Of a stretch of 64,000 bases of DNA, positions 7,100 to 63,496 are shown in pieces. This DNA is from Escherichia phage UGJNEcP3. The translations under genes were made by a program, and so were the position numbers. The stretch's first letter is position 1. The number at the start of each line of letters is the position of its first letter. The notes under the pieces were generated by a model. The model had not been told where the DNA came from. It worked only from the letters and a program-made list of their open reading frames with translations, and did not search any database. The stretch lies in sequence record OV876907; one strand, given 5' to 3'.

Positions 7100-9148
7100 T
7101 TACCCTTGGGTGAATTTTTCTGGGGTTTCGTCAAAATTAATACATGAAGCTAAAATAGGCATTATATCCACCTTGGTCGATTTGACGAATGAATCAAAAG
7201 ACACACGGTTGTCGGTCTCTGTTTCTACGCCTTGGTAAACAACCAATTCGCCGGTTTCCATCAATGCATCACCATCATAGATAACCGCATTTTCTGCTAG
7301 TTGGTCTGTGGTCTGGATATCAGCTTCCAATAATTTGGTGTTGTAGTTTCCTTTATATGAGGCATCTGTAATTTTAGTAATCTTAACAGTAGTTCCACGT
7401 GGAAGAATAACCTCTTGTTCTGTTGGAGAACCTGACAATTCACCGGGCACAATTACGTTAATAGAGTCTGCACCGGAAATTTTCCAACCGATGTTCATCA
7501 TTGTATTTTCGGAACTCGTCAGCATACTTGGAAGAACAATTTCATTATTGCCTTGGAAAGATGTCCCAGCGCGATAGTCCTGATGAACTGCGGCCATTGC
7601 GACGTTTGATACCCAGCCGCCAAAGATAATCGGCTTAAGGGACGTTGATACATAGTTCCTGAAATAAAACAATTTTGAGTGTTTGATTTTATCAAAAGTG
7701 TTAACATTTAAATATTGACCACGCCAAAGTGTAATATCAGGTGGCAATTTATGGCCAATTTCAAATGCCGCATCCATATCATTAATTACTTCAATTACAC
7801 GATAACTATCAATAAATTCTGCATCCTCTTCATAATAATTACCCAACAAATAATTATTAACATCGGTATAATATTGGCCACAATAAGAAGAAATAGCCTC
7901 ACGCTGCCCATACTCAAATCGATTATCGCTATAACTGGCTGTAAAATGCATAACACTTTCTGACGCTTCATTAGCAAAGTCGGTAACAGCAGCACTTATA
8001 CGTTGAGCATACTCTTGTTCCCAAAGCTCTGCTGCATATTCTGCCGCATCCATATTAGGAGGAGCCTCATTCATTTTTCTTTCGATAAATGCAGCTTTGC
8101 GAAGGTTAAGAACCTCTGCACATGATTCGGCAAAAATCTGCATCTGCTTCATACTGCCGACAGGAGCACGTTTAAGTTCACGATGCATACGGTTAAAAAT
8201 TGGGTCAGAGTCTTCGACTCGAATTTCTTCTTTCCAAACACCGTTTGCTCGCATAGCCATATCTGCCGCGCGCATACGCTCCATAGTATTCGTTTCAGAA
8301 GGCTGAATAAAAATTTCCAGTTCTTCATAATCATCGATAAGTTCTGCTGTTGCTGGGGCACTAAATTTTGATGCCTCTGCATCAATCTCATTCCAACCTT
8401 CCGGAACTTCATCTCGAGGAGAATACTGGGCTGCGGCTACAGCACGCCTAGAAATCTTGGTAGTAGTAATAACGGCCTTATCCGTACGTTTTTCTTCGAC
8501 TGCCGCTATACTAGCAGATAGTGCTTCTATTTTGGTTACCGATTGGCCTGTTTTCTTGGATACATAAACCTCACCAACTTTAGACTCAACCTTAGTGTAA
8601 AGGTCTGCATCAATTTCAGGCATACCTTTTATGTCCTCAATATTAGCTTGTTTACGGACCAGTAAAACGTATGTATGTTTGCCTGTAAATTGATACATAT
8701 CATCGACAACTTTAAACTTGCCGCCAGTACGAGCCATCGCCAAACGTGCCAATACACGTTGAACAGTAGGACCCTTACCTTTCATTTTCTTGGTAGGGAA
8801 CCGGAAAAGAACTGCATCCATTTTAAGTTTGTTTACTTGTTCGTATACAGTATCAAAAATGGTATTCAGCGTACCAAGTGGGTCAGAACCTAACCCACCT
8901 TTCAACTCGGCTGGGCTACCCTTAGCAGACAAACTCATCAAAATAACATGAACATATTTGTCACCCGGCTTAACCATTTTAATAGCGTCTCCTTGAGACG
9001 CATAAGATACCATACGAGCAACCAGATTATCATTACCTGGTGCTTGGATAGAGAAAATCTGTGGAATACCGGGACCCGGTTTAAGATTTGTTACTGGATA
9101 GTTTTTAGCGGAATCACTATCAAAAACCTCATTTAAATTTTCCATCAT
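7100..9148 (-). CDS. alt: Alt-like ADP-ribosyltransferase paralog 2
   Basis: 682 aa. R-S-EXE signature FYFRNYVSTS ... EQEVILPRG; C-terminal tail ends PEKFTQG like T4 Alt; start 3 nt after the paralog 3 stop. Confidence 0.8.
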   Translation of the reverse strand: MMENLNEVFDSDSAKNYPVTNLKPGPGIPQIFSIQAPGNDNLVARMVSYASQGDAIKMVKPGDKYVHVILMSLSAKGSPAELKGGLGSDPLGTLNTIFDTVYEQVNKLKMDAVLFRFPTKKMKGKGPTVQRVLARLAMARTGGKFKVVDDMYQFTGKHTYVLLVRKQANIEDIKGMPEIDADLYTKVESKVGEVYVSKKTGQSVTKIEALSASIAAVEEKRTDKAVITTTKISRRAVAAAQYSPRDEVPEGWNEIDAEASKFSAPATAELIDDYEELEIFIQPSETNTMERMRAADMAMRANGVWKEEIRVEDSDPIFNRMHRELKRAPVGSMKQMQIFAESCAEVLNLRKAAFIERKMNEAPPNMDAAEYAAELWEQEYAQRISAAVTDFANEASESVMHFTASYSDNRFEYGQREAISSYCGQYYTDVNNYLLGNYYEEDAEFIDSYRVIEVINDMDAAFEIGHKLPPDITLWRGQYLNVNTFDKIKHSKLFYFRNYVSTSLKPIIFGGWVSNVAMAAVHQDYRAGTSFQGNNEIVLPSMLTSSENTMMNIGWKISGADSINVIVPGELSGSPTEQEVILPRGTTVKITKITDASYKGNYNTKLLEADIQTTDQLAENAVIYDGDALMETGELVVYQGVETETDNRVSFDSFVKSTKVDIMPILASCINFDETPEKFTQG

Positions 9149-30696: not shown

Positions 30697-31086
30697 TTAG
30701 GCCTTAAAAGTTTTTTGCAAAAGTTCAATGATTTGGTCAACGTTCTGTTCGGTGACAATGCAATGGATTTGGGTCACGCCGGCCTTAGCAATAGGCTCAT
30801 CGATTTCTTTATCTTCCACAACATATTCACGGAAGCAATAGAACTCGTCTTCATGCAACTCAAAATAATTTGGCACCAACCCAACTGCATTATAAATCTC
30901 GCCGTTAGCGCATTCGATTTCAGTCACAAATTTGTCGCCATCCATAGTCAACATATCCTTTACTTCAAACCAACCACCGTTGTCTTGGATAAGGTCGACC
31001 ATGCTTTTATTATTTTCATATTCGTCCATTTCAATAAAGTCTTTAATGCATTCAGGACGAAGTTCATAAGTTTTACCGATTTCCAT
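30697..31086 (-). CDS. hypothetical acidic protein
   Basis: 129 aa ORF with promoter module 31116-31144; N-terminal MEIGKTYEL motif. Confidence 0.45.
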   Translation of the reverse strand: MEIGKTYELRPECIKDFIEMDEYENNKSMVDLIQDNGGWFEVKDMLTMDGDKFVTEIECANGEIYNAVGLVPNYFELHEDEFYCFREYVVEDKEIDEPIAKAGVTQIHCIVTEQNVDQIIELLQKTFKA

Positions 31087-34374: not shown

Positions 34375-34403
34375 GTTCATTATATCATGACCCTAGAAGA
34401 AGT
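34375..34403 (-). promoter_or_regulatory. T4-type early promoter for rnh
   Basis: Minus strand GTTTAC, 17 nt, TATAAT, then leader to the rnh ATG. Confidence 0.5.
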
Positions 34404-34414
34404 AAACACTTTGC

Positions 34415-49893: not shown

Positions 49894-49970
49894 ATCAATT
49901 TCCTCAGTAGATTAATGTTTTGTTATCCGGTCAACGAGAACCATTATAACATGATTCTCGAGGTTGTAAA

Positions 49971-50339
49971 CTATTTTTGTAGCTGTTCTAAAATAAATCC
50001 GCTCGTATAAAAAGAAGCATTATAAACCTTGTTCAGCGGGTTCAAAGCCTGTCCGTAAGTATCACGTAGTTCTTTGATAACATTTTCATAGCTTACATAA
50101 TAACCACTATGATAATACGGGTCCATACTCATACGAAATTTAATAAACCGATAAAATCCTGTTTCTGGGTCTTGAACGAAAACGAAATCGGCACCCATCA
50201 TAATTTTTGAATCTACGCCAGGAATCATACTTTGATTGAATGCCACCGATGCATCCTGAAGGCTGAGTTGTTTAAAGAACATTACCTTAGCATTACCAAA
50301 AAAGATTTTAGACATGATAATTTCCTTATTCAGCGTCAA
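49971..50339 (-). CDS. hypothetical protein
   Basis: 122 aa ORF upstream of ndd. Confidence 0.4.
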   Translation of the reverse strand: MTLNKEIIMSKIFFGNAKVMFFKQLSLQDASVAFNQSMIPGVDSKIMMGADFVFVQDPETGFYRFIKFRMSMDPYYHSGYYVSYENVIKELRDTYGQALNPLNKVYNASFYTSGFILEQLQK

Positions 50340-56515: not shown

Positions 56516-58333
56516 TTACGACATCCAGGCCTTACGGAGTTGGGGGTCATTACCAAGGAGCATTTCGAACTGTTCTTTCCAATCTTCAGGTAATTGAACA
56601 ACATCAAATTTAGGGTCTTGAATCATTCGGCGGTATTCAGCTTTCTCAAGAGAACCTAGTCCTTTGATATACCGAATAGAATGTTTTGGTAGAGAGTCCT
56701 TAGCTTTGGTATAACTAGGAACATCATAGAACCATTCCTGTTCTTTACCGACCTGGGCAATAATTACCGGAGTTTTACAGAAACGTACTCGGCCTTGTTC
56801 GAACAATTCAGGCCATTGGCTAAAGAAGGCTAGCAATGATGGATAAATCGAACCAGTACCATCCACATCGGCATCAGTCATAATAGCAATATTACGATAG
56901 TTAGTTTTCTCTGCAGGTTCACCAATAATCAATCCAGTGATTGCACAGATATCAAATAGTTCCTTGTTCTTCATGATATCTGTTGCTGTCATTCCCCAGG
57001 TATTCATAACCTTACCACGTAATGGATAGCCACCTTGAAGGTCTTTATTACGGACTTCAATGAAAGGACCCATAGCGGAATCACCTTCGGTTAGGAACAG
57101 GGTTGTATCAGCATCTTTGCCGTATAGGTTAGCTTTAATATGCTTATGGACCTTGGCTTTAGAAGCTTTCTTAGCGGCTTTAGTTTCGGCAGCCTTTTCG
57201 GCTGCTAATTTACGTGCTAAAGCAGCTTCAACGATAGGCATAATCAACCCATCAACTTTAAGAATGGCTTGGGCAATTTTCTTGGCATCAATTTGGATAT
57301 GATTACGAATCTCACCAAACGGAGATGTTAAGCGCTCTTTAGTCTGGGAATCAAAACGCATGTTGCTCATATCACGAATGAACATCACCATCGTAAGGCA
57401 TTCTTTAACACGAGCTTTAGTTACTTCAATTCCACGGTATTTCTTTTTAATACCAGGCAGAAGATGTTCACAGATATCATCGAACACACATTCAACGTGG
57501 TGACCACCATTCTTGGTATGGATATTGTTTACATACGTCAGTTGACGGAACCCGTCCGGAGAAGGAGTAAATGCCATCGAAACATTATCAGTTTCCTGGA
57601 TTACAAAGTCTTCACCAAATTGCTTAGCATACTTTTTAAAGTTGCCATCTACTTTTTTACCATTAAAAGTAAATTGGATATCTGGATAAATTACAGCTAG
57701 TGTTTGAAGTCGGTCTAATGTAATATCCAGATAAATTTGGGACAGGCTATTTTCTTCGAAATGGTTAAAGTCCGGAGTGAATATAACCGAAGTACCCTTA
57801 CCTTTAGATTTCTTAGTAGACCAACCTTTGTTTTCCATTCCGTTTGAACAGTTAACAGTAATCTCATTCTCACCATCAGAGGTGATGCCTGTGAACAAAA
57901 CAGAGAAGATATTAGTTAAACTACTACCGACACCATTCATGCCGCCTGTCTTACGCTCAGCGTCATCTCCAAAGTTACCACCTGCCTTTGGAATAGTCCA
58001 TGCAGCTACAGGACCTGGAATTTGTTCACCATTTTGGTCGGTGACCATTGCTTGTGGAATACCACGACCATTATCAGAAACTGAAACCTGGTTATTCTTA
58101 ATTTGAACATCAATTTTATTTGCGAATTTAAAATTGGTACGAATAGCTTCATCGACAGAGTTATCAATGATTTCGTCAATTAATTTAACCAGTCCAGGAA
58201 CATAGTTTACCTGTGTAAAATTACCAAACAGGAATCGACCGTGAGCTTCATTAGCACTGGAGCCAATATACATCCCACTACGTTTTTTGATATGTTCAAT
58301 GTCGGACAGTACTTTAATTTCATTCTTAATCAT
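56516..58333 (-). CDS. 39: DNA topoisomerase II large subunit gp39, full length (includes the region encoded by gene 60 in T4)
   Basis: 605 aa; GHKL ATPase region (IDNSVDEA, DNGRGIP) plus Toprim region (TEGDSA, IMTDADVDG) in one uninterrupted ORF. Confidence 0.85.
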   Translation of the reverse strand: MIKNEIKVLSDIEHIKKRSGMYIGSSANEAHGRFLFGNFTQVNYVPGLVKLIDEIIDNSVDEAIRTNFKFANKIDVQIKNNQVSVSDNGRGIPQAMVTDQNGEQIPGPVAAWTIPKAGGNFGDDAERKTGGMNGVGSSLTNIFSVLFTGITSDGENEITVNCSNGMENKGWSTKKSKGKGTSVIFTPDFNHFEENSLSQIYLDITLDRLQTLAVIYPDIQFTFNGKKVDGNFKKYAKQFGEDFVIQETDNVSMAFTPSPDGFRQLTYVNNIHTKNGGHHVECVFDDICEHLLPGIKKKYRGIEVTKARVKECLTMVMFIRDMSNMRFDSQTKERLTSPFGEIRNHIQIDAKKIAQAILKVDGLIMPIVEAALARKLAAEKAAETKAAKKASKAKVHKHIKANLYGKDADTTLFLTEGDSAMGPFIEVRNKDLQGGYPLRGKVMNTWGMTATDIMKNKELFDICAITGLIIGEPAEKTNYRNIAIMTDADVDGTGSIYPSLLAFFSQWPELFEQGRVRFCKTPVIIAQVGKEQEWFYDVPSYTKAKDSLPKHSIRYIKGLGSLEKAEYRRMIQDPKFDVVQLPEDWKEQFEMLLGNDPQLRKAWMS

Positions 58334-58387
58334 GTTATTTCCTCATGTAGTAGGAGAATATTATCCCATTTCACTTAAAGCATAAAA

Positions 58388-58399
58388 GGGCCGAAGCCC
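58388..58399 (-). terminator. C(UUCG)G hairpin terminator
   Basis: Minus strand GGGC-UUCG-GCCC followed by UUUUAUGCUUU, directly after the stop of ORF 58400-58660. Confidence 0.45.
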
Positions 58400-58660
58400 T
58401 TAATCAAATCGAATGGTCGACTTTTTAAAGAATAGCCCAGAACAAACTGTTCCTTCAACCCTTTTACCTGTCGGACCTACAGCAATAAAGCCTGTACGTT
58501 GGAAATCATCTTCAGAGCAGCCAAATAGGTTGTATCCCGTGATTTGGATTTGTTCATAGCCATTTGCATCCAATACACGGGTAGCATTATCAGCATCAGT
58601 ACATCCAACCAGTGAAACTGCTAATACGAGAGCTGCAATAGAACGATTAATATATTTCAT
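58400..58660 (-). CDS. predicted lipoprotein of unknown function
   Basis: 86 aa; signal peptide with lipobox LVGCT (MKYINRSIAALVLAVSLVGCTDADN...); three further Cys in the mature part. Confidence 0.5.
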   Translation of the reverse strand: MKYINRSIAALVLAVSLVGCTDADNATRVLDANGYEQIQITGYNLFGCSEDDFQRTGFIAVGPTGKRVEGTVCSGLFFKKSTIRFD

Positions 58661-58850
58661 AATTTCTCACTTAGTCAGTAGGTCGTAAAACCCGCCATTA
58701 ACATGTTTAGGAGCCGAGACTAACCGAACAGCCAGCCGTTGGCAATCAGGACAAACATCATTATCTCTTTCAGATATTTTCTTGATTTTTTTCGTATTCT
58801 TTTGCACAGTCTTCTGATTGGCATTTATAATCATAAAGTGGCATCTTCTA

Positions 58851-59222
58851 TTATTCCTTAAAGTGGGCTTTCAACATCTGGTAAACTGTCCAGGCTTCAG
58901 AATTATTAGAGATAGTGATTTTAGTCAAAGGGAATTCGCTTGGCTCAGATGGAGCCGCGTCTTCGCATTCATCTTCGGTATCGTCATCTTTTTCTTCTTC
59001 AAAGAAACGACGCTCATCTTTCTTTATGAATAGGCTCGTAAATTCACCAGTTGATAATTCCATTTTATACACATCACCATCTTCAATTCTGACTGGTCTA
59101 AATCCCTCGCCATTGATTATAGTATCGGCTATATTATCATTATCTGTACATAACAAACGGAATTTGCTTTCGGCATCATTATCTTTAAAATAATACCACT
59201 TATCGGTTTCAAATTTGGTCAT
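58851..59222 (-). CDS. hypothetical acidic protein (start uncertain)
   Basis: Track ORF 58851-59315 overlaps the upstream gene; internal ATG at 59222; acidic C-terminal tract. Confidence 0.35.
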   Translation of the reverse strand: MTKFETDKWYYFKDNDAESKFRLLCTDNDNIADTIINGEGFRPVRIEDGDVYKMELSTGEFTSLFIKKDERRFFEEEKDDDTEDECEDAAPSEPSEFPLTKITISNNSEAWTVYQMLKAHFKE

Positions 59223-59433
59223 TATAATTCTCCTTCCAGAATTCAGTGCCTTCAGCAGTGATTTCACGGAACACTGCATAGATAGGGGTTTTATCACCCT
59301 GATTTTCGTATACATAAACCGACGATAAATGAGAAAACGTATCAGAATATTCCTTTTGAACCACGATTAAATCAGGGTTGAACAGAACATCTTCAAATTC
59401 TTCACGAGTCGAGTTCACAGTAACTTTAGCCAT
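59209..59433 (-). CDS. hypothetical protein
   Basis: 74 aa ORF with promoter module at about 59464-59493. Confidence 0.4.
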   Translation of the reverse strand: MAKVTVNSTREEFEDVLFNPDLIVVQKEYSDTFSHLSSVYVYENQGDKTPIYAVFREITAEGTEFWKENYNDQI

Positions 59434-59506
59434 TTTATTTTCCTCTCATTTGTTGATAGGGTAATAGTATCACACTACTACCCTGTTGTATACCACTTTT
59501 TAAACT

Positions 59507-60058
59507 TTATGCAAAATGAATATCAGCATACTCAACAATAAAACTTTCAGGAACTACTTTAAAGGTGCCAAGGAACACGATGTTATACAGCTTAACACCT
59601 TCTTCAACCCATTGGTCTGTGATATAACCGGACATGCTGGTAGTTTCGTAAGTGGGGCCATACTTGCAATTGTATTCAAACGGTTTAGGTGAAACGAAAA
59701 AGACACCTTTACCTAATTTCCATTTAAAATCAACACCAACATGAGATCGGTCAATAGTTTCAACGTCTTGAGCTACTACGCCACGGATATCATTGCTTTC
59801 ACATACATACCCATCATGGGATTCAACTTCTTCAACTACAGGAGCGATGTATCCGGTAAATTCAGTAGATTCCAAGAATTTAGCACGCACATATCCGAAT
59901 TGAGTTTCGGTCTGGCCATTTTTAGGAATAATACGCACTTTAACTTCTTTAATTCCACCTACTAAATTGGTACGAATACCTGCAACTTCAACTAAACTGC
60001 CCGCAGCTTTTGAACGAGACTTTTTGGATACACGAACAATTTCACCGATAGTAATCAT
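59507..60058 (-). CDS. hypothetical protein, paralog A of a tandem pair
   Basis: 183 aa; C-terminal block GYITDQWVEEGVKLYNIVFLGTFKVVPESF shared with ORF 60132-60680. Confidence 0.45.
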   Translation of the reverse strand: MITIGEIVRVSKKSRSKAAGSLVEVAGIRTNLVGGIKEVKVRIIPKNGQTETQFGYVRAKFLESTEFTGYIAPVVEEVESHDGYVCESNDIRGVVAQDVETIDRSHVGVDFKWKLGKGVFFVSPKPFEYNCKYGPTYETTSMSGYITDQWVEEGVKLYNIVFLGTFKVVPESFIVEYADIHFA

Positions 60059-60131
60059 AATTTTTCTCTCTTGGTTAAAGGATTATAATCCATAAGAGCC
60101 ATTATAACATGGCTCTCGATAAAGTAAACTA

Positions 60132-60680
60132 TTAATTCAATACATTAACCACTGCACTACGAGGTACTACGCTAAAATCACCAGCATGTACAACGTTCAG
60201 GAGTTCAACACCATCTTCAATCCACTGGTCTGTTACCCAACCACAGATAGGATTATCAAAAGGACGACGGATAGCCACAGCAGCACACAACAGGTCGGTA
60301 GGGCCTTGTTCTTCAACTTCTTGGAACAGGATGAACTCATCTTCATAAACCAGGTTTTTCTCTATTTTGTTATTATCTAACCGGCGGCCGTGGATGACGT
60401 AAGATTTGTCAAACCACTCACTTTTGGCGAATTCTTCAACAATAAATTCGCCTTCGCCAAAAACATCAGTCAGAGTTTTATAACCAGAAATCAAGGCCTT
60501 AATTTTAATTTCAGGTTCAACCAGTTTGTAGGTTTTGCCGATTTCGATAGTCTGAGTAGTCATAGTGGTTTCCTTAATTTCCAGTGGTTTAACAGGGCAT
60601 ACATAAGTGCTTAAAACATCAAAATCAATCAGTTTAGCTGCCGGATTCGGGGTGTATTTAGGGTTGTAATTAAATTTCAT
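60132..60680 (-). CDS. hypothetical protein, paralog B of a tandem pair
   Basis: 182 aa; C-terminal block GWVTDQWIEDGVELLNVVHAGDFSVVPRSA; start overlaps the upstream stop (ATGA). Confidence 0.45.
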   Translation of the reverse strand: MKFNYNPKYTPNPAAKLIDFDVLSTYVCPVKPLEIKETTMTTQTIEIGKTYKLVEPEIKIKALISGYKTLTDVFGEGEFIVEEFAKSEWFDKSYVIHGRRLDNNKIEKNLVYEDEFILFQEVEEQGPTDLLCAAVAIRRPFDNPICGWVTDQWIEDGVELLNVVHAGDFSVVPRSAVVNVLN

Positions 60681-61186
60681 ATTGTTCTCAATTCAATAAA
60701 ATCTACGAGTTCGGCATAAGATTTGCGGAACATTACTTGGCGGCCACCGATGACAACCTCATCTTCTGGTATTTCGTAAACAGCAAGATAGAATCCTTTA
60801 GAAGATAATTCTTTACGCTCTTCACGAGTGAACCAGCGCATCATATCATACTCACTGGCAAAAGCAAAATGGTAGAGGTTAACAAACCAGCCTGGAATAT
60901 AATCGTCGCAGCCTTCATAATCAGGTCGTTTCCACTTAGTTCTAATGGTTTTATTAGAATTTTCTACCAGCAACTTATCTTGACTTGGTAGTGGGATATT
61001 TTTATTAATGCTATGATGATGTCTAAAAATAGGTCTGTCTAAACCTACTTCTAATAACCAGCCTTCACTCCATGAGTCTGTTGTACTTCTATACGGGGTC
61101 ATTTGAGTACAGAGGTCTCGTCGTATTGTGATAGTGTTTCCATCATCTAAGATACTGAACGATGACTCAACTCGATAAATTTTCAT
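60677..61186 (-). CDS. hypothetical protein
   Basis: 169 aa ORF with promoter module 61214-61242. Confidence 0.45.
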   Translation of the reverse strand: MKIYRVESSFSILDDGNTITIRRDLCTQMTPYRSTTDSWSEGWLLEVGLDRPIFRHHHSINKNIPLPSQDKLLVENSNKTIRTKWKRPDYEGCDDYIPGWFVNLYHFAFASEYDMMRWFTREERKELSSKGFYLAVYEIPEDEVVIGGRQVMFRKSYAELVDFIELRTI

Positions 61187-61213
61187 TTTGTTCTCCTCAT
61201 GTTGATAGGGTAG

Positions 61214-61242
61214 ATAATATCATGTCATGAGGAGAAGTAAAC
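61214..61242 (-). promoter_or_regulatory. T4-type early promoter
   Basis: Minus strand GTTTAC, 17 nt, TATTAT, then leader CTACCCTATCAACATGAGGAGAACAAA and ATG. Confidence 0.5.
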
Positions 61243-61246
61243 ACTT

Positions 61247-61921
61247 TTATCGATTTTTTACACTTAATGGGTCTGGATTCTCAGGAACATCTTCTAGGCT
61301 CAAGGCATACCGTTGAGCGTATTTCAGCATCAAGATATCCTTGGCGCAGTCATGGATGGAGTCATGGGCTACAAAGCCATTCAATGTTCCGTTAGGCAGA
61401 GGGCACATGCTTAATCCACGCGTCAGTGAATAGGCTTCAATGGCCGTACGGATATCGCGTTGGTTCCAGAATTTAACCGGTTCCAACTTAGTGGTATCGA
61501 CTTCGTTCTCAGGAACACCTTCAGAACGATAAGCATCACGAATAAGGTCCACTAAGATCGGAAAGTCAAAGGACATTCCGCGGCACCACATCTGGGATTT
61601 CCATTGGTCCACTTCGTTTTTACGACAGTATTCCAGGAAATTACCAATGCCGATAGAAGTACTCACATCAATTTCGGACGGAGCCAGGTTTTTACGTGCT
61701 TCAGGTCCTTGTTCTTTCCACCACTGCAATGTGCTTTTAGAGAACAGACGTTTATCGCGTTGAGAAGCCAAATCGAATTTAATACGAAGGCCGCGTTGAG
61801 TAAGCTCTTCAAACGATTCTACTACCTCTGGATTGGGGTCATAAGCAATTACGGCGAGGTCTATAACTGCTGCATTTTGGGTAGTGGCAAAGGTTTCGAA
61901 GTCAATAATTATATCTTTCAT
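61247..61921 (-). CDS. dexA: exonuclease A
   Basis: 224 aa; IIDFETF...AAVIDLAVIAYDPNPEVVE...GFVAHDSIHDCAKDI.MLKYA matches recalled T4 DexA. Confidence 0.85.
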   Translation of the reverse strand: MKDIIIDFETFATTQNAAVIDLAVIAYDPNPEVVESFEELTQRGLRIKFDLASQRDKRLFSKSTLQWWKEQGPEARKNLAPSEIDVSTSIGIGNFLEYCRKNEVDQWKSQMWCRGMSFDFPILVDLIRDAYRSEGVPENEVDTTKLEPVKFWNQRDIRTAIEAYSLTRGLSMCPLPNGTLNGFVAHDSIHDCAKDILMLKYAQRYALSLEDVPENPDPLSVKNR

Positions 61922-62208
61922 TTAACGTACCTCATAAGGTCTCGGATTTGGCCAACGGTATAGTCTTCAATATAAACCGAAGAGATATTGTCGTCCATCA
62001 GTTTTTGCACTGCAATAAAATCACTTTCAATCTCTTTAAGTGAATGCAAGACCTTATGAGCCTTGCCACGGATATTTGTATCGTCTGGGTTGACCTTAAT
62101 AATATATTCCGTCTCGAATTTCAACTTATAAAATTGGTCTTTAGTTACTTTAATCATATTTTCCTCAAACATAATAGGCATCAGTACGAGCACGGGTAAT
62201 ACTAACAT
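61918..62208 (-). CDS. hypothetical protein
   Basis: 96 aa ORF between dda and dexA. Confidence 0.4.
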   Translation of the reverse strand: MLVLPVLVLMPIMFEENMIKVTKDQFYKLKFETEYIIKVNPDDTNIRGKAHKVLHSLKEIESDFIAVQKLMDDNISSVYIEDYTVGQIRDLMRYVK

Positions 62209-63496
62209 AAGCCAGCTGTGAAGCTAAATTGGCATCTGCCATGTGCATGCACGGAGTATAGATGAAACTGTTTTGGACAGTAAGACCCTGTGATTTATGA
62301 ACAGTGCTCACCGGAAGAGCTCGAACCTTAGTGAACATTCGCTTAGCTTTCCAGAAATCAGCCCACTTAGGTTTCTTACCAGTTCCACGCATAGCCTTGT
62401 ACTCAGTAGCCACCTTAGCCAAGAAATAATGGAACTTCTCAACTGAAGCCTCATCAATAACTTTCAAGTGTTCTACATAGTACTCGTCATCCTCATCAAC
62501 AGATTCAACCTGGAGGTCCCAGTAATTAATCATCTGGCGAGTGCCTACATCCTTGGCAGACAAAAACAATGAGGTGTGGTTCACATCTAAAATACGAACC
62601 ATCTGGCCGTTATTAAAAATGGTTTCAGAGAATTTCTTACCGTCGTATTCAAGTTCCTTAATAAAAGGCTCTTGCATCACGAGGATTTCACCCTTAATAT
62701 AAGGCGCATCGGTTTCATAAAGCTTTTTACGAATAATACTATTCAGCTTTTCAACTGATTTATTTGTATAAGCAAACATCCTATTCTCAAACAAGGCATC
62801 TGCGTCTTTTACGATGGAAAAATAATTCATCATAAAATCTTTTAAAGCAGTCTGAGATTTAAAACCATGGACACCGTGTCCTTCGAATACACAATCTCTA
62901 AACCATCCACCATTACGGATTTCAGTAGCCACCTCAATGATAGGAGCATTACTACGCATCACTTCAGTCAAATGCAATTGCTTTATTTTTGGATGCGTAA
63001 AGAATGGAGACAACTGAGGACTACCATCACTTCCAGGTTCCACAGGCTGTAGCTGAGCTCGGTCACCAATCCCTAATACAGTACACCATGGTGGCACGGA
63101 AGACTCAATAATCTTAAACAACTTACCGTCAATCATTGAGCCTTCATCAACAACTAACACATTACACTTGCTCAAGTCAGGAGCTTCTCGTTGTTCAAAG
63201 ATATCCTGGTCTTCGTATGTAGTAGGGTTAATCTTTAAGATTCGATGAATTGTCGATGCTTCTTGGCCTGCGAGTTTAGACAATACCTTTTTGGCTGCAT
63301 GTGTAGGTGCAGTCAAAATAACTCCGAGTTCACCATTCTTGACCAAGTGGTCAAGGATAAATTTAGTAAGGGTTGTTTTACCTGTACCGGCAGGACCGTT
63401 CAATGTAATCCATTCGCCCTTACGTCGTTTAATAGCTTCAATGATTTCTTTAAAGGCCGTCCTCTGGCCGATGTTCAAGTCTTCAAATGTAATCAT
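62165..63496 (-). CDS. dda: DNA helicase Dda (SF1B)
   Basis: 443 aa; Walker A GPAGTGKTT, blocks APTHAAKK, FTNKSVEKLNSIIRKK; near-identical in blocks to recalled T4 Dda. Confidence 0.9.
   Translation of the reverse strand: MITFEDLNIGQRTAFKEIIEAIKRRKGEWITLNGPAGTGKTTLTKFILDHLVKNGELGVILTAPTHAAKKVLSKLAGQEASTIHRILKINPTTYEDQDIFEQREAPDLSKCNVLVVDEGSMIDGKLFKIIESSVPPWCTVLGIGDRAQLQPVEPGSDGSPQLSPFFTHPKIKQLHLTEVMRSNAPIIEVATEIRNGGWFRDCVFEGHGVHGFKSQTALKDFMMNYFSIVKDADALFENRMFAYTNKSVEKLNSIIRKKLYETDAPYIKGEILVMQEPFIKELEYDGKKFSETIFNNGQMVRILDVNHTSLFLSAKDVGTRQMINYWDLQVESVDEDDEYYVEHLKVIDEASVEKFHYFLAKVATEYKAMRGTGKKPKWADFWKAKRMFTKVRALPVSTVHKSQGLTVQNSFIYTPCMHMADANLASQLAYVSITRARTDAYYV

What the first reader, a model, noticed from the sequence alone, without database searches (positions are those of the whole stretch)
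59507..60680. Tandem pair of paralogous unknown proteins upstream of dexA
Adjacent minus-strand ORFs of 183 and 182 aa share a conserved C-terminal block (G-Y/W-I/V-TDQW-V/I-E-E/D-GV-K/E-L...VVP) with divergent N-terminal halves. The second ORF also shares an EIGKTY-type motif with the unrelated-position ORF 30697-31086. Duplication followed by divergence in the hyperplastic 39-dexA interval suggests an accessory function under diversifying pressure.
Basis: seen in the sequence. Interest (0 to 1): 0.45.

Follow-up and report, generated by a model that had tools for sequence, protein, structure and literature searches.

The report
Known T4-type motB / motB.1 gene pair
The two adjacent genes are the T4-type early genes motB (a DNA-coating protein that interferes with the host silencer H-NS) and motB.1; their shared C-terminal domain and unrelated N-terminal domains were described in 2021 and 2025, so the finding is real but ordinary.

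Summary
Two minus-strand ORFs of 183 aa (59507-60058) and 182 aa (60132-60680) share a C-terminal block: BLASTP 18/36 identical, E 4e-11; z = 14.9 against shuffles; profile-profile probability 98.3%.

They are not unknown proteins. The window is a JS98-like Dhakavirus, 100% identical to Escherichia phage UGJNEcP4. ORF1 is MotB (Pfam PF17613, 185.6 bits). ORF2 is MotB.1 (phrog_2333, E 3e-86). They sit in the canonical order 39 - 39.1 - 39.2 - goF - cef - motB - motB.1 - motB.2 - dexA.

The shared C-terminal domain, the different N-terminal domains and the duplication idea were published by Patterson-West et al. 2021. The 'EIGKTY' link to ORF 30697-31086, which is Frd.2, reflects the GoF/MotB.1/Frd.2 LSm-like barrel of Kim et al. 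2025.

The N-terminal halves are different domains, not diverged copies: a basic KOW-like barrel in MotB and a GoF/Frd.2-type barrel in MotB.1. Pairwise dN/dS is 0.1-0.6 in every domain where it could be estimated, so diversifying selection is not supported.

New side observations:
- The T4 reference motB.1 carries a one-base frameshift that is absent from 13 other T4-species genomes.
- A conserved linear peptide motif recurs in the family.
- The family is small and C-terminal in every short representative.

Novelty: already known.

The parts
59507..60058 (-). motB (183 aa + stop): T4-type MotB, 'modifier of transcription', a nucleoid-associated DNA-binding protein
   Evidence: Pfam PF17613 E 7.7e-55, 185.6 bits. 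phrog_1671 E 3.3e-70. 52% identical to T4 MotB, E 4e-61. Annotated motB in JS98 and 'MotB-like transcriptional regulator' in the identical record OV877765.1.
59870..60058 (-). MotB N-terminal domain, aa 1-63: basic all-beta KOW/SH3-like barrel
59747..59869 (-). MotB linker, aa 64-104: acidic, predicted disordered, with a ~24-aa insertion (..EEVESHDGYVCESNDIRGVVAQD..) that T4 MotB lacks
   Evidence: pLDDT < 50 for residues 66-104. Net charge -8. The insertion is visible in the alignments.
59510..59746 (-). MotB C-terminal domain, aa 105-183: five-stranded beta domain. The core shared with MotB.1 is aa 140-175 (nt 59534-59641).
   Evidence: AF2 block-mean pLDDT 53-92 over aa 101-183 (76-92 from aa 111), with strands at 118-130, 136-152, 155-162, 165-170 and 174-177. 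BLASTP and hhalign align it to MotB.1.
60132..60680 (-). motB.1 (182 aa + stop): paralogue carrying the MotB-type C-terminal domain
   Evidence: phrog_2333 E 3.3e-86, full length. Annotated motB.1 in JS98. 239 homologues in the protein database. tblastn hits in 770 phage records, 366 of them near full length.
60552..60680 (-). MotB.1 N-terminal extension, aa 1-43: conserved but predicted disordered peptide, absent from the T4-species MotB.1. It contains the motif LIDFDVLSTYVCPVKPL.
   Evidence: pLDDT < 50 for residues 1-42. Many invariant residues. dN/dS 0.20-0.29, so it is coding. Its ATG overlaps the motB.2 stop as ATGA at 60677-60680. The motif recurs in other family members.
60306..60551 (-). 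MotB.1 middle domain, aa 44-125: small beta-barrel with one helix, of the GoF/Frd.2 'LSm-like' type. It starts with the IEIGKTYKL strand.
60135..60305 (-). MotB.1 C-terminal domain, aa 126-182: acidic five-stranded beta module homologous to the MotB C-terminal domain. Shared core is aa 143-178 (nt 60147-60254).
   Evidence: Pfam motB 35 bits against a cut-off of 25, aa 141-177. AF2 block-mean pLDDT 78-85 over aa 131-180. C146-S175 is nearly invariant in 23 homologues. Net charge -4.
60101..60129 (-). T4 early-type promoter-like site (GTTTAC-N17-TATAAT with TG) in the 73-bp motB.1-motB spacer, about 40 nt upstream of the motB ATG. A 9-bp hairpin at 60094-60117 overlaps it.
   Evidence: Promoter scan gives 10/12 matches with TG. 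The exact pattern GTTTAC-N(14-17)-TATAAT occurs 3 times in the window against 0.1 expected, all on the minus strand. Hairpin -16.8 kcal/mol, z -3.2. Promoter function is inferred, not shown.
61214..61241 (-). Second early-promoter-like site (TTTACT-16-TATTAT with TG) upstream of motB.2. It would drive motB.2 and the translationally overlapped motB.1.
   Evidence: Function inferred.
60677..61186 (-). motB.2 (169 aa), the upstream neighbour whose stop overlaps the motB.1 start. It is not a paralogue of the pair.
   Evidence: phrog_1106 E 4.9e-51. JS98 annotation. No Pfam hit.
30697..31086 (-). frd.2 homologue (129 aa), the ORF with the MEIGKTYEL start. Its N-terminal barrel is the same kind as the MotB.1 middle domain.
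   Evidence: phrog_622 E 6.5e-41. 74% identical to JS98 frd.2b and located just downstream of gene 32.
58851..59222 (-). goF-like gene (123 aa from the annotated start), the third member of the GoF/Frd.2/MotB.1 barrel family in the window
   Evidence: phrog_622 E 5.9e-29 and weaker goF PHROGs. Record annotation. Alignment A5.

Best explanation
The finding is the motB - motB.1 pair of a JS98-like T-even phage (Dhakavirus).

MotB has three parts: a basic KOW-like beta-barrel (aa 1-63), an acidic disordered linker, and a beta-rich C-terminal domain (aa 105-183). By homology with T4 MotB (52% identity), it is an early protein that binds host and phage DNA tightly and without sequence specificity. 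T4 MotB co-purifies with H-NS and StpA, remodels H-NS-DNA complexes, de-represses H-NS-silenced DNA and raises burst size about two-fold.

MotB.1 is a modular paralogue. It carries the same C-terminal domain, joined to a GoF/Frd.2-type small beta-barrel (the published 'LSm-like' fold), and is preceded here by a conserved disordered 43-residue peptide. The two genes arose by an old duplication of the C-terminal module combined with domain shuffling. They did not arise by divergence of a whole-gene duplicate. Every domain with enough substitutions to estimate is under purifying selection.

Inferred mechanism (not shown). The shared acidic core (D-x-W-x-E-x-G-x-x-L-x-N-x-V-x-x-G) is unlikely to contact nucleic acid itself. 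It most likely provides a common protein-protein function, either self-association or docking onto a common partner or nucleoprotein complex. The N-terminal barrels would then supply different cargo: duplex DNA for the basic KOW-like barrel of MotB, and possibly RNA or another ligand for the acidic barrel of MotB.1.

The two genes sit behind separate early-type promoter-like sites. motB.1 is translationally overlapped with motB.2.
For: Identity:
- The window is 100% identical to Escherichia phage UGJNEcP4 and 95% to JS98, where the genes are annotated motB and motB.1.
- Pfam and PHROG assignments.
- T4 synteny of 39-39.1-39.2-goF-cef-motB-motB.1-motB.2-dexA.

Paralogy is confined to the C-terminal domain.

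Domain anatomy:
- AF2 models.
- MotB.1 middle domain related to GoF/Frd.2; MotB N-terminus not related to them.

Charge: MotB N-terminal domain +7 with pI 10.4, shared core acidic, MotB.1 net -10.

Shuffling: the same C-terminal domain is found behind KOW-like, single or double GoF-type barrels in other phages, and is C-terminal in all the 100-250 aa representatives, with only 34 representatives among 1.84 billion proteins.

Selection: dN/dS 0.1-0.6 in all domains where estimable, and an invariant MotB.1 core.

Old duplication: 59% nucleotide identity in the core.

Published function of T4 MotB: PMC6070864 and PMC7827196. Published MotB/MotB.1 C-terminal relationship: PMC7827196. Published LSm-like family: PMC12152347.

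Promoter-like sites.
Against: - No experiment exists for this phage's proteins. The function is transferred from T4 MotB at 52% identity.
- The window's MotB has a 24-aa linker insertion that T4 lacks.
- The role assigned to the shared C-terminal domain is inference from charge and conservation only. The published view is that the C-terminal domain may be an OB-fold that could itself bind DNA.
- T4 motB.1 deletion and amber mutants show no phenotype, and MotB.1 had no effect in an RNA-reporter assay. So there is no positive evidence for any MotB.1 activity.
- The GoF/Frd.2 relationship of the MotB.1 barrel reaches only 64% hhalign probability with the shallow alignments used here.
Confidence: 0.9

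Rival explanations
1. One reading: a recent tandem duplication of an unknown gene whose N-terminal halves are diverging under diversifying (arms-race) selection, pointing to a host-range or anti-defence accessory function.
For: The genes are adjacent and share a domain. Copy number and order of motB-type genes vary between T-even genera. The motB C-terminal domain is a recombination mosaic relative to JS98, with dS about 1.0 against 0.02-0.3 in its neighbours.
Against: Both genes are conserved as distinct orthologous families across Tevenvirinae. The N-terminal halves are non-homologous domains. dN/dS is 0.1-0.6 in all domains where estimable. The shared core has only 59% nucleotide identity, with near-saturated third positions. 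There is no PADLOC hit of note.
Confidence: 0.04
2. MotB.1 acts on MotB. Through the shared C-terminal domain it would heterodimerise with MotB and modulate or cap MotB-DNA filaments, as a regulator or dominant-negative partner rather than an independent effector.
For: The pair is co-located and co-retained in many genomes: 40 further phage genomes per PMC7827196. The core is acidic and highly conserved in both proteins. T4 MotB.1 migrates as monomer and dimer. MotB.1 is acidic overall, so it is unlikely to be a DNA coater itself.
Against: No interaction data exist. The MotB and MotB.1 cores differ consistently at several positions (KLYN against ELLN, VF against VH), which could equally indicate separate specificities. 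Some phages carry only one C-terminal-domain-bearing gene. Multimer prediction could not be run with these tools.
Confidence: 0.15
3. MotB.1 is an RNA-binding, chaperone-like protein that acts independently of MotB through its LSm-like barrel (the hypothesis of Kim et al. 2025). On this view the shared C-terminal domain is merely a stable scaffold or oligomerisation tail.
Confidence: 0.15
4. The C-terminal similarity is a chance or compositional match.
For: None beyond the shortness (36 aa) of the BLAST segment.
Against: E 4e-11. z 14.9. hhalign probability 98.3%. The Pfam threshold is passed.
Confidence: 0.01

Closest known systems
Bacteriophage T4 MotB (Pfam PF17613; Patterson-West et al. 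2018 and 2021, PMC6070864 and PMC7827196)
   Same: ORF1 is an orthologue: 52% identity over the full length, the same KOW-like N-terminal domain plus C-terminal domain architecture, the same position between cef and motB.1, and an early-promoter-like site upstream.
   Different: The window protein is 21 aa longer, owing to an acidic, disordered insertion in the linker (EEVESHDGYVCESNDIRG...). No biochemical data exist for the Dhakavirus protein.
T4-type MotB.1 (phrog_2333; UniProt P39415 'uncharacterized 13.8 kDa protein in motB-dexA intergenic region')
   Same: ORF2 is an orthologue. The C-terminal domain is 84% identical to the T4-species protein (RB55), with the same barrel-linker-C-terminal-domain plan and the same position upstream of motB.
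   Different: The window form (182 aa) has a conserved 43-aa N-terminal extension that the T4-species form (143 aa) lacks. Its barrel is only about 26% identical to that of T4. The 119-aa T4 reference protein is in addition truncated by a frameshift.
GoF / Frd.2 / MotB.1 'LSm-like fold' family of Tevenvirinae (Kim et al. 2025, PMC12152347)
   Same: The MotB.1 middle domain (aa 44-125), the window's Frd.2 (30697-31086) and the goF-like gene (58851-59222) belong to it.
   Different: Only MotB.1 joins this barrel to the MotB-type C-terminal domain. Sequence support for the link is weak here (hhalign 64%). Bona fide LSm/Hfq features (Sm motifs, ring assembly) are not demonstrated.
KOW / Tudor / chromo / PWWP SH3-like small beta-barrels (NusG C-terminal domain, Spt5 KOW, 53BP1 and PHF19 Tudor)
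   Different: There is no sequence relationship: no PDB hit by profile. The similarity is at fold level only, and the fold is very common.
Other phage antagonists of H-NS (for example T7 gp5.5 and T4 Arn) - from my own knowledge
   Same: The proposed biological role is the same as for MotB: relieving or remodelling H-NS binding during infection.
   Different: They are unrelated in sequence and mechanism. Gp5.5 and Arn bind H-NS protein directly (Arn as a DNA mimic), whereas MotB is itself a DNA-binding, DNA-compacting protein.

Membership tests
MotB (Pfam PF17613 / phrog_1671) | Full-length match to the family HMM above the curated threshold | tested here: met
   ORF1 scores 185.6 bits against a cut-off of 25, E 7.7e-55. 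phrog_1671 E 3.3e-70 covers aa 1-183.
MotB (Pfam PF17613 / phrog_1671) | Two-domain plan: basic KOW-like N-terminal barrel plus a conserved C-terminal domain | tested here: met
MotB (Pfam PF17613 / phrog_1671) | Conserved genomic position between cef and motB.1/dexA in the early region downstream of gene 39 | tested here: met
MotB (Pfam PF17613 / phrog_1671) | Non-specific tight DNA binding, co-purification with H-NS and StpA, and a burst-size benefit | not testable with these tools
   Known only for T4 MotB (PMC6070864 and PMC7827196).
MotB.1 (phrog_2333) | Full-length match to the family profile and orthology to annotated motB.1 genes | tested here: met
   phrog_2333 E 3.3e-86 covers aa 1-182. 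98% identical to JS98 MotB.1. E 1e-38 to the RB55 (T4-species) MotB.1.
MotB.1 (phrog_2333) | C-terminal domain homologous to the MotB C-terminal domain | tested here: met
GoF/Frd.2/MotB.1 LSm-like barrel family (Kim et al. 2025) | N-terminal five-stranded small beta-barrel related to GoF and Frd.2 | tested here: inconclusive
   phrog_622 E 3.7e-4. hhalign probability 64%, E 6.5e-5. AF2 gives a beta-rich domain with one helix at pLDDT about 73. The BFVD search returned MotB.1 relatives but no named GoF or Frd.2. The result is supportive but not decisive.
Bona fide LSm/Hfq proteins | Sm1/Sm2 sequence motifs, ring (hexamer or heptamer) assembly and RNA binding | not tested
OB-fold (cold-shock/IF5A-like) assignment of the MotB C-terminal domain (HHpred prediction in PMC7827196) | Five-stranded Greek-key OB barrel recognisable by structure comparison | tested here: inconclusive
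Anti-defence or defence proteins (PADLOC) | Match to a known defence-system protein model | tested here: not met
   There is only a 13-bit Csm5 hit at E 0.008 for ORF2, and nothing for ORF1.

The most novel reading that the evidence does not exclude
The invariant acidic core of about 36 aa shared by MotB and MotB.1 would be a portable docking module. It would deliver different small nucleic-acid-binding barrels (KOW-like, or one or two GoF-type) to the same host nucleoprotein target, for example H-NS/StpA filaments. The conserved disordered peptide motif D-x-D-V/I-x-S-x-Y-x-x-P-x-x-P-L would be a second host-binding element; it lies in the MotB.1 N-terminal extension, in the linkers of KOW-C-terminal-domain hybrids, and in half-form in this phage's MotB linker. 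On this reading MotB.1 has a real function that was missed because the published T4 construct was synthesised from a frameshifted reference and lacked most of the module.
Probability: 0.15. Interest if true: 0.45.

Novelty: already known. Interest (0 to 1): 0.12.

Why it matters
The finding itself adds nothing new. Patterson-West et al. 2021 already described the motB/motB.1 pair, its shared C-terminal domain, its different N-terminal domains and its probable origin by duplication. Kim et al. 2025 described the MotB.1-Frd.2-GoF barrel.

The work does have practical value in three ways:

1. **Correction of the reading.** The 'diverged halves under diversifying selection' interpretation is replaced by 'domain shuffling under purifying selection'.
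2. **The T4 reference.** The reference motB.1 (119 aa, 13.8 kDa) carries a one-base insertion that is absent from 13 other T4-species genomes. The only functional tests of plasmid-expressed MotB.1 therefore probably used a protein lacking two-thirds of its most conserved domain. Repeating them with the 143-aa or 180-aa form is a cheap and direct experiment.
3. **Targets for follow-up.** The 34-representative family, whose short members all carry the module at the C-terminus, and its conserved linear motif give concrete handles for asking what the shared domain binds.

Tried and rejected
- Chance similarity: rejected.
- Recent duplication or gene conversion: rejected, because the shared core has only 59% nucleotide identity and 15/36 identical third codon positions.
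- Diversifying selection: pairwise Nei-Gojobori dN/dS against JS98, fHoEco02, T-01 and RB55 is 0.1-0.6 for every domain where it could be estimated. Site-specific tests were not done.
- Homology of the two N-terminal halves to each other: hhalign found nothing outside the C-terminal domain. MotB against GoF/Frd.2 gave 0.5% probability.
- Solved structures by sequence: none for MotB or for the C-terminal-domain profile, even at E 10.
- NCBIfam: no hits.
- PADLOC: nothing meaningful.
- Rfam on the 4-kb locus at E <= 1: only two sub-threshold chance matches.
- BFVD search to confirm the GoF/Frd.2 structural link: it returned only MotB.1 and MotB relatives with names.
- Tail-fibre proteins hit by the C-terminal-domain profile (P0261-P0263, P0267): inspected and judged to be a repeated short motif (SGYATEQWVEDKxYLT) inflating the summed scores, not homology of the domain.
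- A literature search call failed on a term that was too short and was replaced.
Full report
**1. What is in the sequence**

The two ORFs exist exactly as described. 59507-60058 (-) encodes 183 aa and 60132-60680 (-) encodes 182 aa. A megablast of 58300-62300 shows the window is 100% identical to Escherichia phage UGJNEcP4 (OV877765.1). It is about 95% identical to phage JS98, both members of the genus Dhakavirus in the Tevenvirinae.

In JS98 the two genes are annotated motB and motB.1. The whole neighbourhood follows the T4 order 39 - 39.1 - 39.2 - goF-like - cef - motB - motB.1 - motB.2 - dexA - dexA.1 - dda. The pair therefore lies two genes upstream of dexA, not directly next to it.

**2. 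Is the similarity real?**

Yes.
- BLASTP aligns ORF1 140-175 with ORF2 143-178 at 50% identity, E 4e-11.
- The local alignment score is 108, against 30.9 +/- 5.2 in 2000 shuffles (z 14.9).
- Family profiles built from 34 MotB and 23 MotB.1 sequences align with 98.3% probability (E 2.3e-14) over MotB 95-177 and MotB.1 117-180. The homologous unit is thus the whole C-terminal domain, with a roughly 20-residue hairpin extension in MotB.
- Nothing outside the C-terminal domain aligns.
- A joint C-terminal-domain alignment leaves D, W, E, G, L, N, V, G and V invariant in the pattern D-x-W-x-E-x-G-x-x-L-x-N-x-V-x-x-G-x-x-x-V.

**3. What the proteins are**

ORF1 is MotB. It matches Pfam PF17613 at 185.6 bits against a cut-off of 25, and phrog_1671 at E 3e-70. 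It is 52% identical to T4 MotB over the full length.

ORF2 is MotB.1. It matches phrog_2333 at E 3e-86 over its full length. Its C-terminus alone passes the Pfam motB threshold at 35 bits.

No NCBIfam hit, no meaningful PADLOC hit, no Rfam hit above threshold and no PDB-sequence hit adds to this.

*AF2 models.*
- MotB (mean pLDDT 69.7): an N-terminal beta-barrel (aa 1-63), a disordered acidic linker (aa 66-104, pLDDT < 50) and a five-stranded C-terminal domain (block-mean pLDDT 76-92 from aa 111).
- MotB.1 (mean pLDDT 65.8): a disordered N-terminal 42 residues, a barrel with one helix (aa 44-122, pLDDT about 73) and a five-stranded C-terminal domain (aa 134-181, block-mean pLDDT 78-85).
- The last four strands of the two C-terminal domains are in register with the sequence alignment.

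*Charge.* The MotB N-terminal domain is strongly basic (+7, pI 10.4). The shared core is acidic in both proteins, and MotB.1 as a whole is acidic (net -10, pI 4.7).

**4. The EIGKTY motif**

ORF 30697-31086 is a phrog_622 member (E 6.5e-41). It is 74% identical to JS98 frd.2b and lies just downstream of gene 32, so it is Frd.2. The window's goF-like protein belongs to the same PHROG (E 5.9e-29). MotB.1 residues 44-126 hit it at E 3.7e-4. hhalign of the MotB.1 family against a small GoF/Frd.2 alignment gives 64% probability, E 6.5e-5, over 78 columns that begin at the EIGKTY strand.

[quoted passage not shown] MotB's N-terminus is not part of this family by sequence (0.5% probability).

**5. 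What was already known**

Patterson-West et al. [quoted passage not shown] They also report that 40 further phage genomes carry both genes, and that other categories combine the C-terminal domain with other N-termini. They predict a KOW N-terminal domain and an OB-fold C-terminal domain for MotB.

Their 2018 and 2021 papers show several properties of T4 MotB:
- it binds DNA non-specifically;
- it is toxic when over-expressed;
- it co-purifies with H-NS and StpA;
- it changes H-NS footprints;
- it up-regulates H-NS-repressed host genes;
- it doubles burst size.

Kim et al. [quoted passage not shown] They found no phenotype for T4 motB.1 amber or deletion mutants.

**6.

The proteins are not unknown.

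The N-terminal halves are not diverged copies but different modules. A profile of the C-terminal domain searched against 1.84 billion representative proteins finds only 34 hits at E <= 1e-3. Apart from a few long tail-fibre-like proteins (section 8) and one probable junk translation, these are phage-type proteins of 43-251 aa with the module at the C-terminus. The module follows any of these N-terminal arrangements:
- a KOW-like barrel (MotB);
- one GoF-type barrel (MotB.1);
- two GoF-type barrels (P0246);
- a KOW-like barrel joined to a MotB.1-type C-terminal domain (P0249, P0253, P0255, P0259, P0260).

This is domain shuffling.

Selection is purifying. Nei-Gojobori dN/dS against four other phages is 0.1-0.6 for every domain where it could be estimated. 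MotB.1 residues C146-S175 are almost invariant among homologues that differ by up to 25% overall.

The duplication is old: the shared core has 59% nucleotide identity and only 15 of 36 identical third positions.

What is plastic is gene content and recombination. Copy number and order differ between genera. The motB C-terminal domain of this phage has dS about 1.0 relative to JS98, while flanking genes have dS 0.02-0.25, which indicates a mosaic exchange.

**7. Most likely mechanism**

*Shown in T4 and transferred by homology.* MotB is an early nucleoid-associated protein. It coats and compacts DNA and counteracts H-NS.

*Inferred here.* The basic KOW-like N-terminal domain is the better candidate for DNA contact. 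The acidic, highly conserved shared core more probably mediates a protein-protein function common to MotB and MotB.1, either self-association or docking on a common partner. MotB.1 would then bring a different barrel, possibly RNA-binding, to the same place. Alternatively it could modulate MotB through the shared domain. None of this is tested.

*Expression.* A near-consensus T4 early-type promoter (GTTTAC-N17-TATAAT with TG) lies in the 73-bp spacer before motB. This exact pattern occurs 3 times in the window against 0.1 expected. A second promoter-like site precedes motB.2, whose stop overlaps the motB.1 start as ATGA.

**8. Side observations**

(a) *T4 reference frameshift.* The T4 reference motB.1 (119 aa) ends ...GWVTDQWIGRWR*. 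The next reading frame continues EDGVELLNVVHAGEYSVVPRSAVVAILN*, almost identical to the window protein.
- An alignment shows one extra G in the reference.
- A 65-nt probe is 100% identical only in AF158101.6 and NC_000866.4. Thirteen other T4-species genomes lack the G, and T4T and MT984581 annotate a 143-aa product.
- Kim et al. had motB.1 synthesised, cite NC_000866.4 coordinates and report a 13.8-kDa monomer. The expressed protein therefore probably lacked most of the conserved core.

(b) *N-terminal extension.* The 43-aa extension of the window's MotB.1 is absent from T4-species MotB.1 and is predicted disordered. It is nevertheless conserved and under purifying selection. Its motif D-x-D-V-x-S-x-Y-x-x-P-x-x-P-L recurs in the linkers of KOW-C-terminal-domain hybrids. 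The DGYV half of the longer form appears in the linker insertion of this phage's MotB.

(c) *Possible internal start.* Met40 is invariant and is preceded by AAGGA with a 7-nt spacer. A shorter isoform starting four residues before the point where the T4-species protein starts is possible.

(d) *Tail-fibre matches.* The C-terminal-domain profile and Pfam motB weakly match repeated SGYATEQWVEDKxYLT motifs in tail-fibre-like proteins. I judge this to be short-motif resemblance rather than homology.

**9. Verdict**

The feature is already known. Interest is low. The T4 reference frameshift and the linear motif are the only items that might repay a small follow-up.

Noticed in passing
L003 3792-3830 (NC_000866.4 about 7291-7330); compare L004 412-843, L009 and L010 189-620: The T4 reference motB.1 (119 aa, 13.8 kDa) has one extra G (ATTGGAAGAT against ATTGAAGAT) that truncates the MotB-like C-terminal domain. 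Thirteen other T4-species genomes lack the G, and the RB55, T4T and MT984581 records annotate a 143-aa protein ending EDGVELLNVVHAGEYSVVPRSAVVAILN. The MotB.1 expression plasmids in PMC12152347 were gene-synthesised by a vendor, and the paper cites NC_000866.4 coordinates and reports a 13.8-kDa monomer (the 119-aa reference form), so they probably encode the truncated product.
   Followed up: yes
window 60582-60626 (MotB.1 aa 19-33) and 59783-59821 (MotB aa 80-92); P0253, P0255, P0257, P0259, P0260: A conserved linear motif, (DG[YF]V)-x-D-x-D-[VI]-x-S-x-Y-x-x-P-x-x-P-[LI], sits in predicted disordered segments. It is found in the N-terminal extension of MotB.1, in the linkers of KOW-C-terminal-domain hybrid proteins, and in half-form (SHDGYVCESNDI) in the linker insertion of this phage's MotB. 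It may be a short binding motif.
   Followed up: partly
window 60561-60575 (-): Met40 of MotB.1 is invariant in 23 homologues and is preceded by AAGGA with a 7-nt spacer. An internal start would give a protein of about 143 aa, beginning four residues before the point where the T4-species MotB.1 starts. The long form is supported by the ATGA overlap with motB.2 and by dN/dS of 0.2-0.3 in the extension.
   Followed up: no
P0011, P0068, P0082 (248-250 aa); P0246 (251 aa); P0264 (43 aa): There are MotB.1 length variants. One form has an extra N-terminal segment of about 80 aa. One has two tandem GoF-type barrels. A 43-aa remnant fuses the first 14 residues of MotB.2 to the last 28 of MotB.1, like the 29-aa RB69 peptide reported in PMC7827196.
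   Followed up: partly
P0261, P0262, P0263, P0267 (tail-fibre-like proteins, 600-860 aa): The C-terminal-domain profile, and Pfam motB at 29.3 bits on P0262, match 4-7 repeats of SGYATEQWVEDKxYLT in proteins carrying phage tail tip or tail repeat domains. This is probably short-motif resemblance that inflates summed scores rather than homology.
   Followed up: partly
window 59510-59746 (motB C-terminal domain) against L001: Relative to JS98, the motB C-terminal domain has dS about 1.0 and 87% overall amino-acid identity. The adjacent motB.1, motB.2, dexA, dexA.1 and 39.1 have dS 0.02-0.25 and 98-100% identity. This indicates a recombination mosaic inside motB. The goF-like gene (61% identity) and 39.2 (75%) are also swapped.
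   Followed up: partly
window 60094-60117 (-) and 59458-59484 (-): There are stable hairpins in the intergenic spacers. One is a 9-bp stem overlapping the -10 of the motB promoter-like site (-16.8 kcal/mol, z -3.2). The other is a 12-bp stem between motB and cef (-15.2 kcal/mol, z -2.1). Neither has a proper T-run. Their role (terminator, RNA stabiliser or processing site) is unknown.
   Followed up: partly
window 30697-31086 against L005 446-1204: The window phage has a single frd.2 gene (74% identical to JS98 frd.2b) directly downstream of gene 32, where JS98 has two tandem copies (frd.2a and frd.2b). This is another copy-number difference in the GoF/Frd.2 barrel family.
   Followed up: partly
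window 34379-34407, 49943-49971 and 60101-60129 (all -): There are three exact GTTTAC-N17-(CATG[AT])TATAAT sites, against 0.1 expected. They are likely T4-type early promoters and share the extended CATGNTATAAT -10 region.
   Followed up: no
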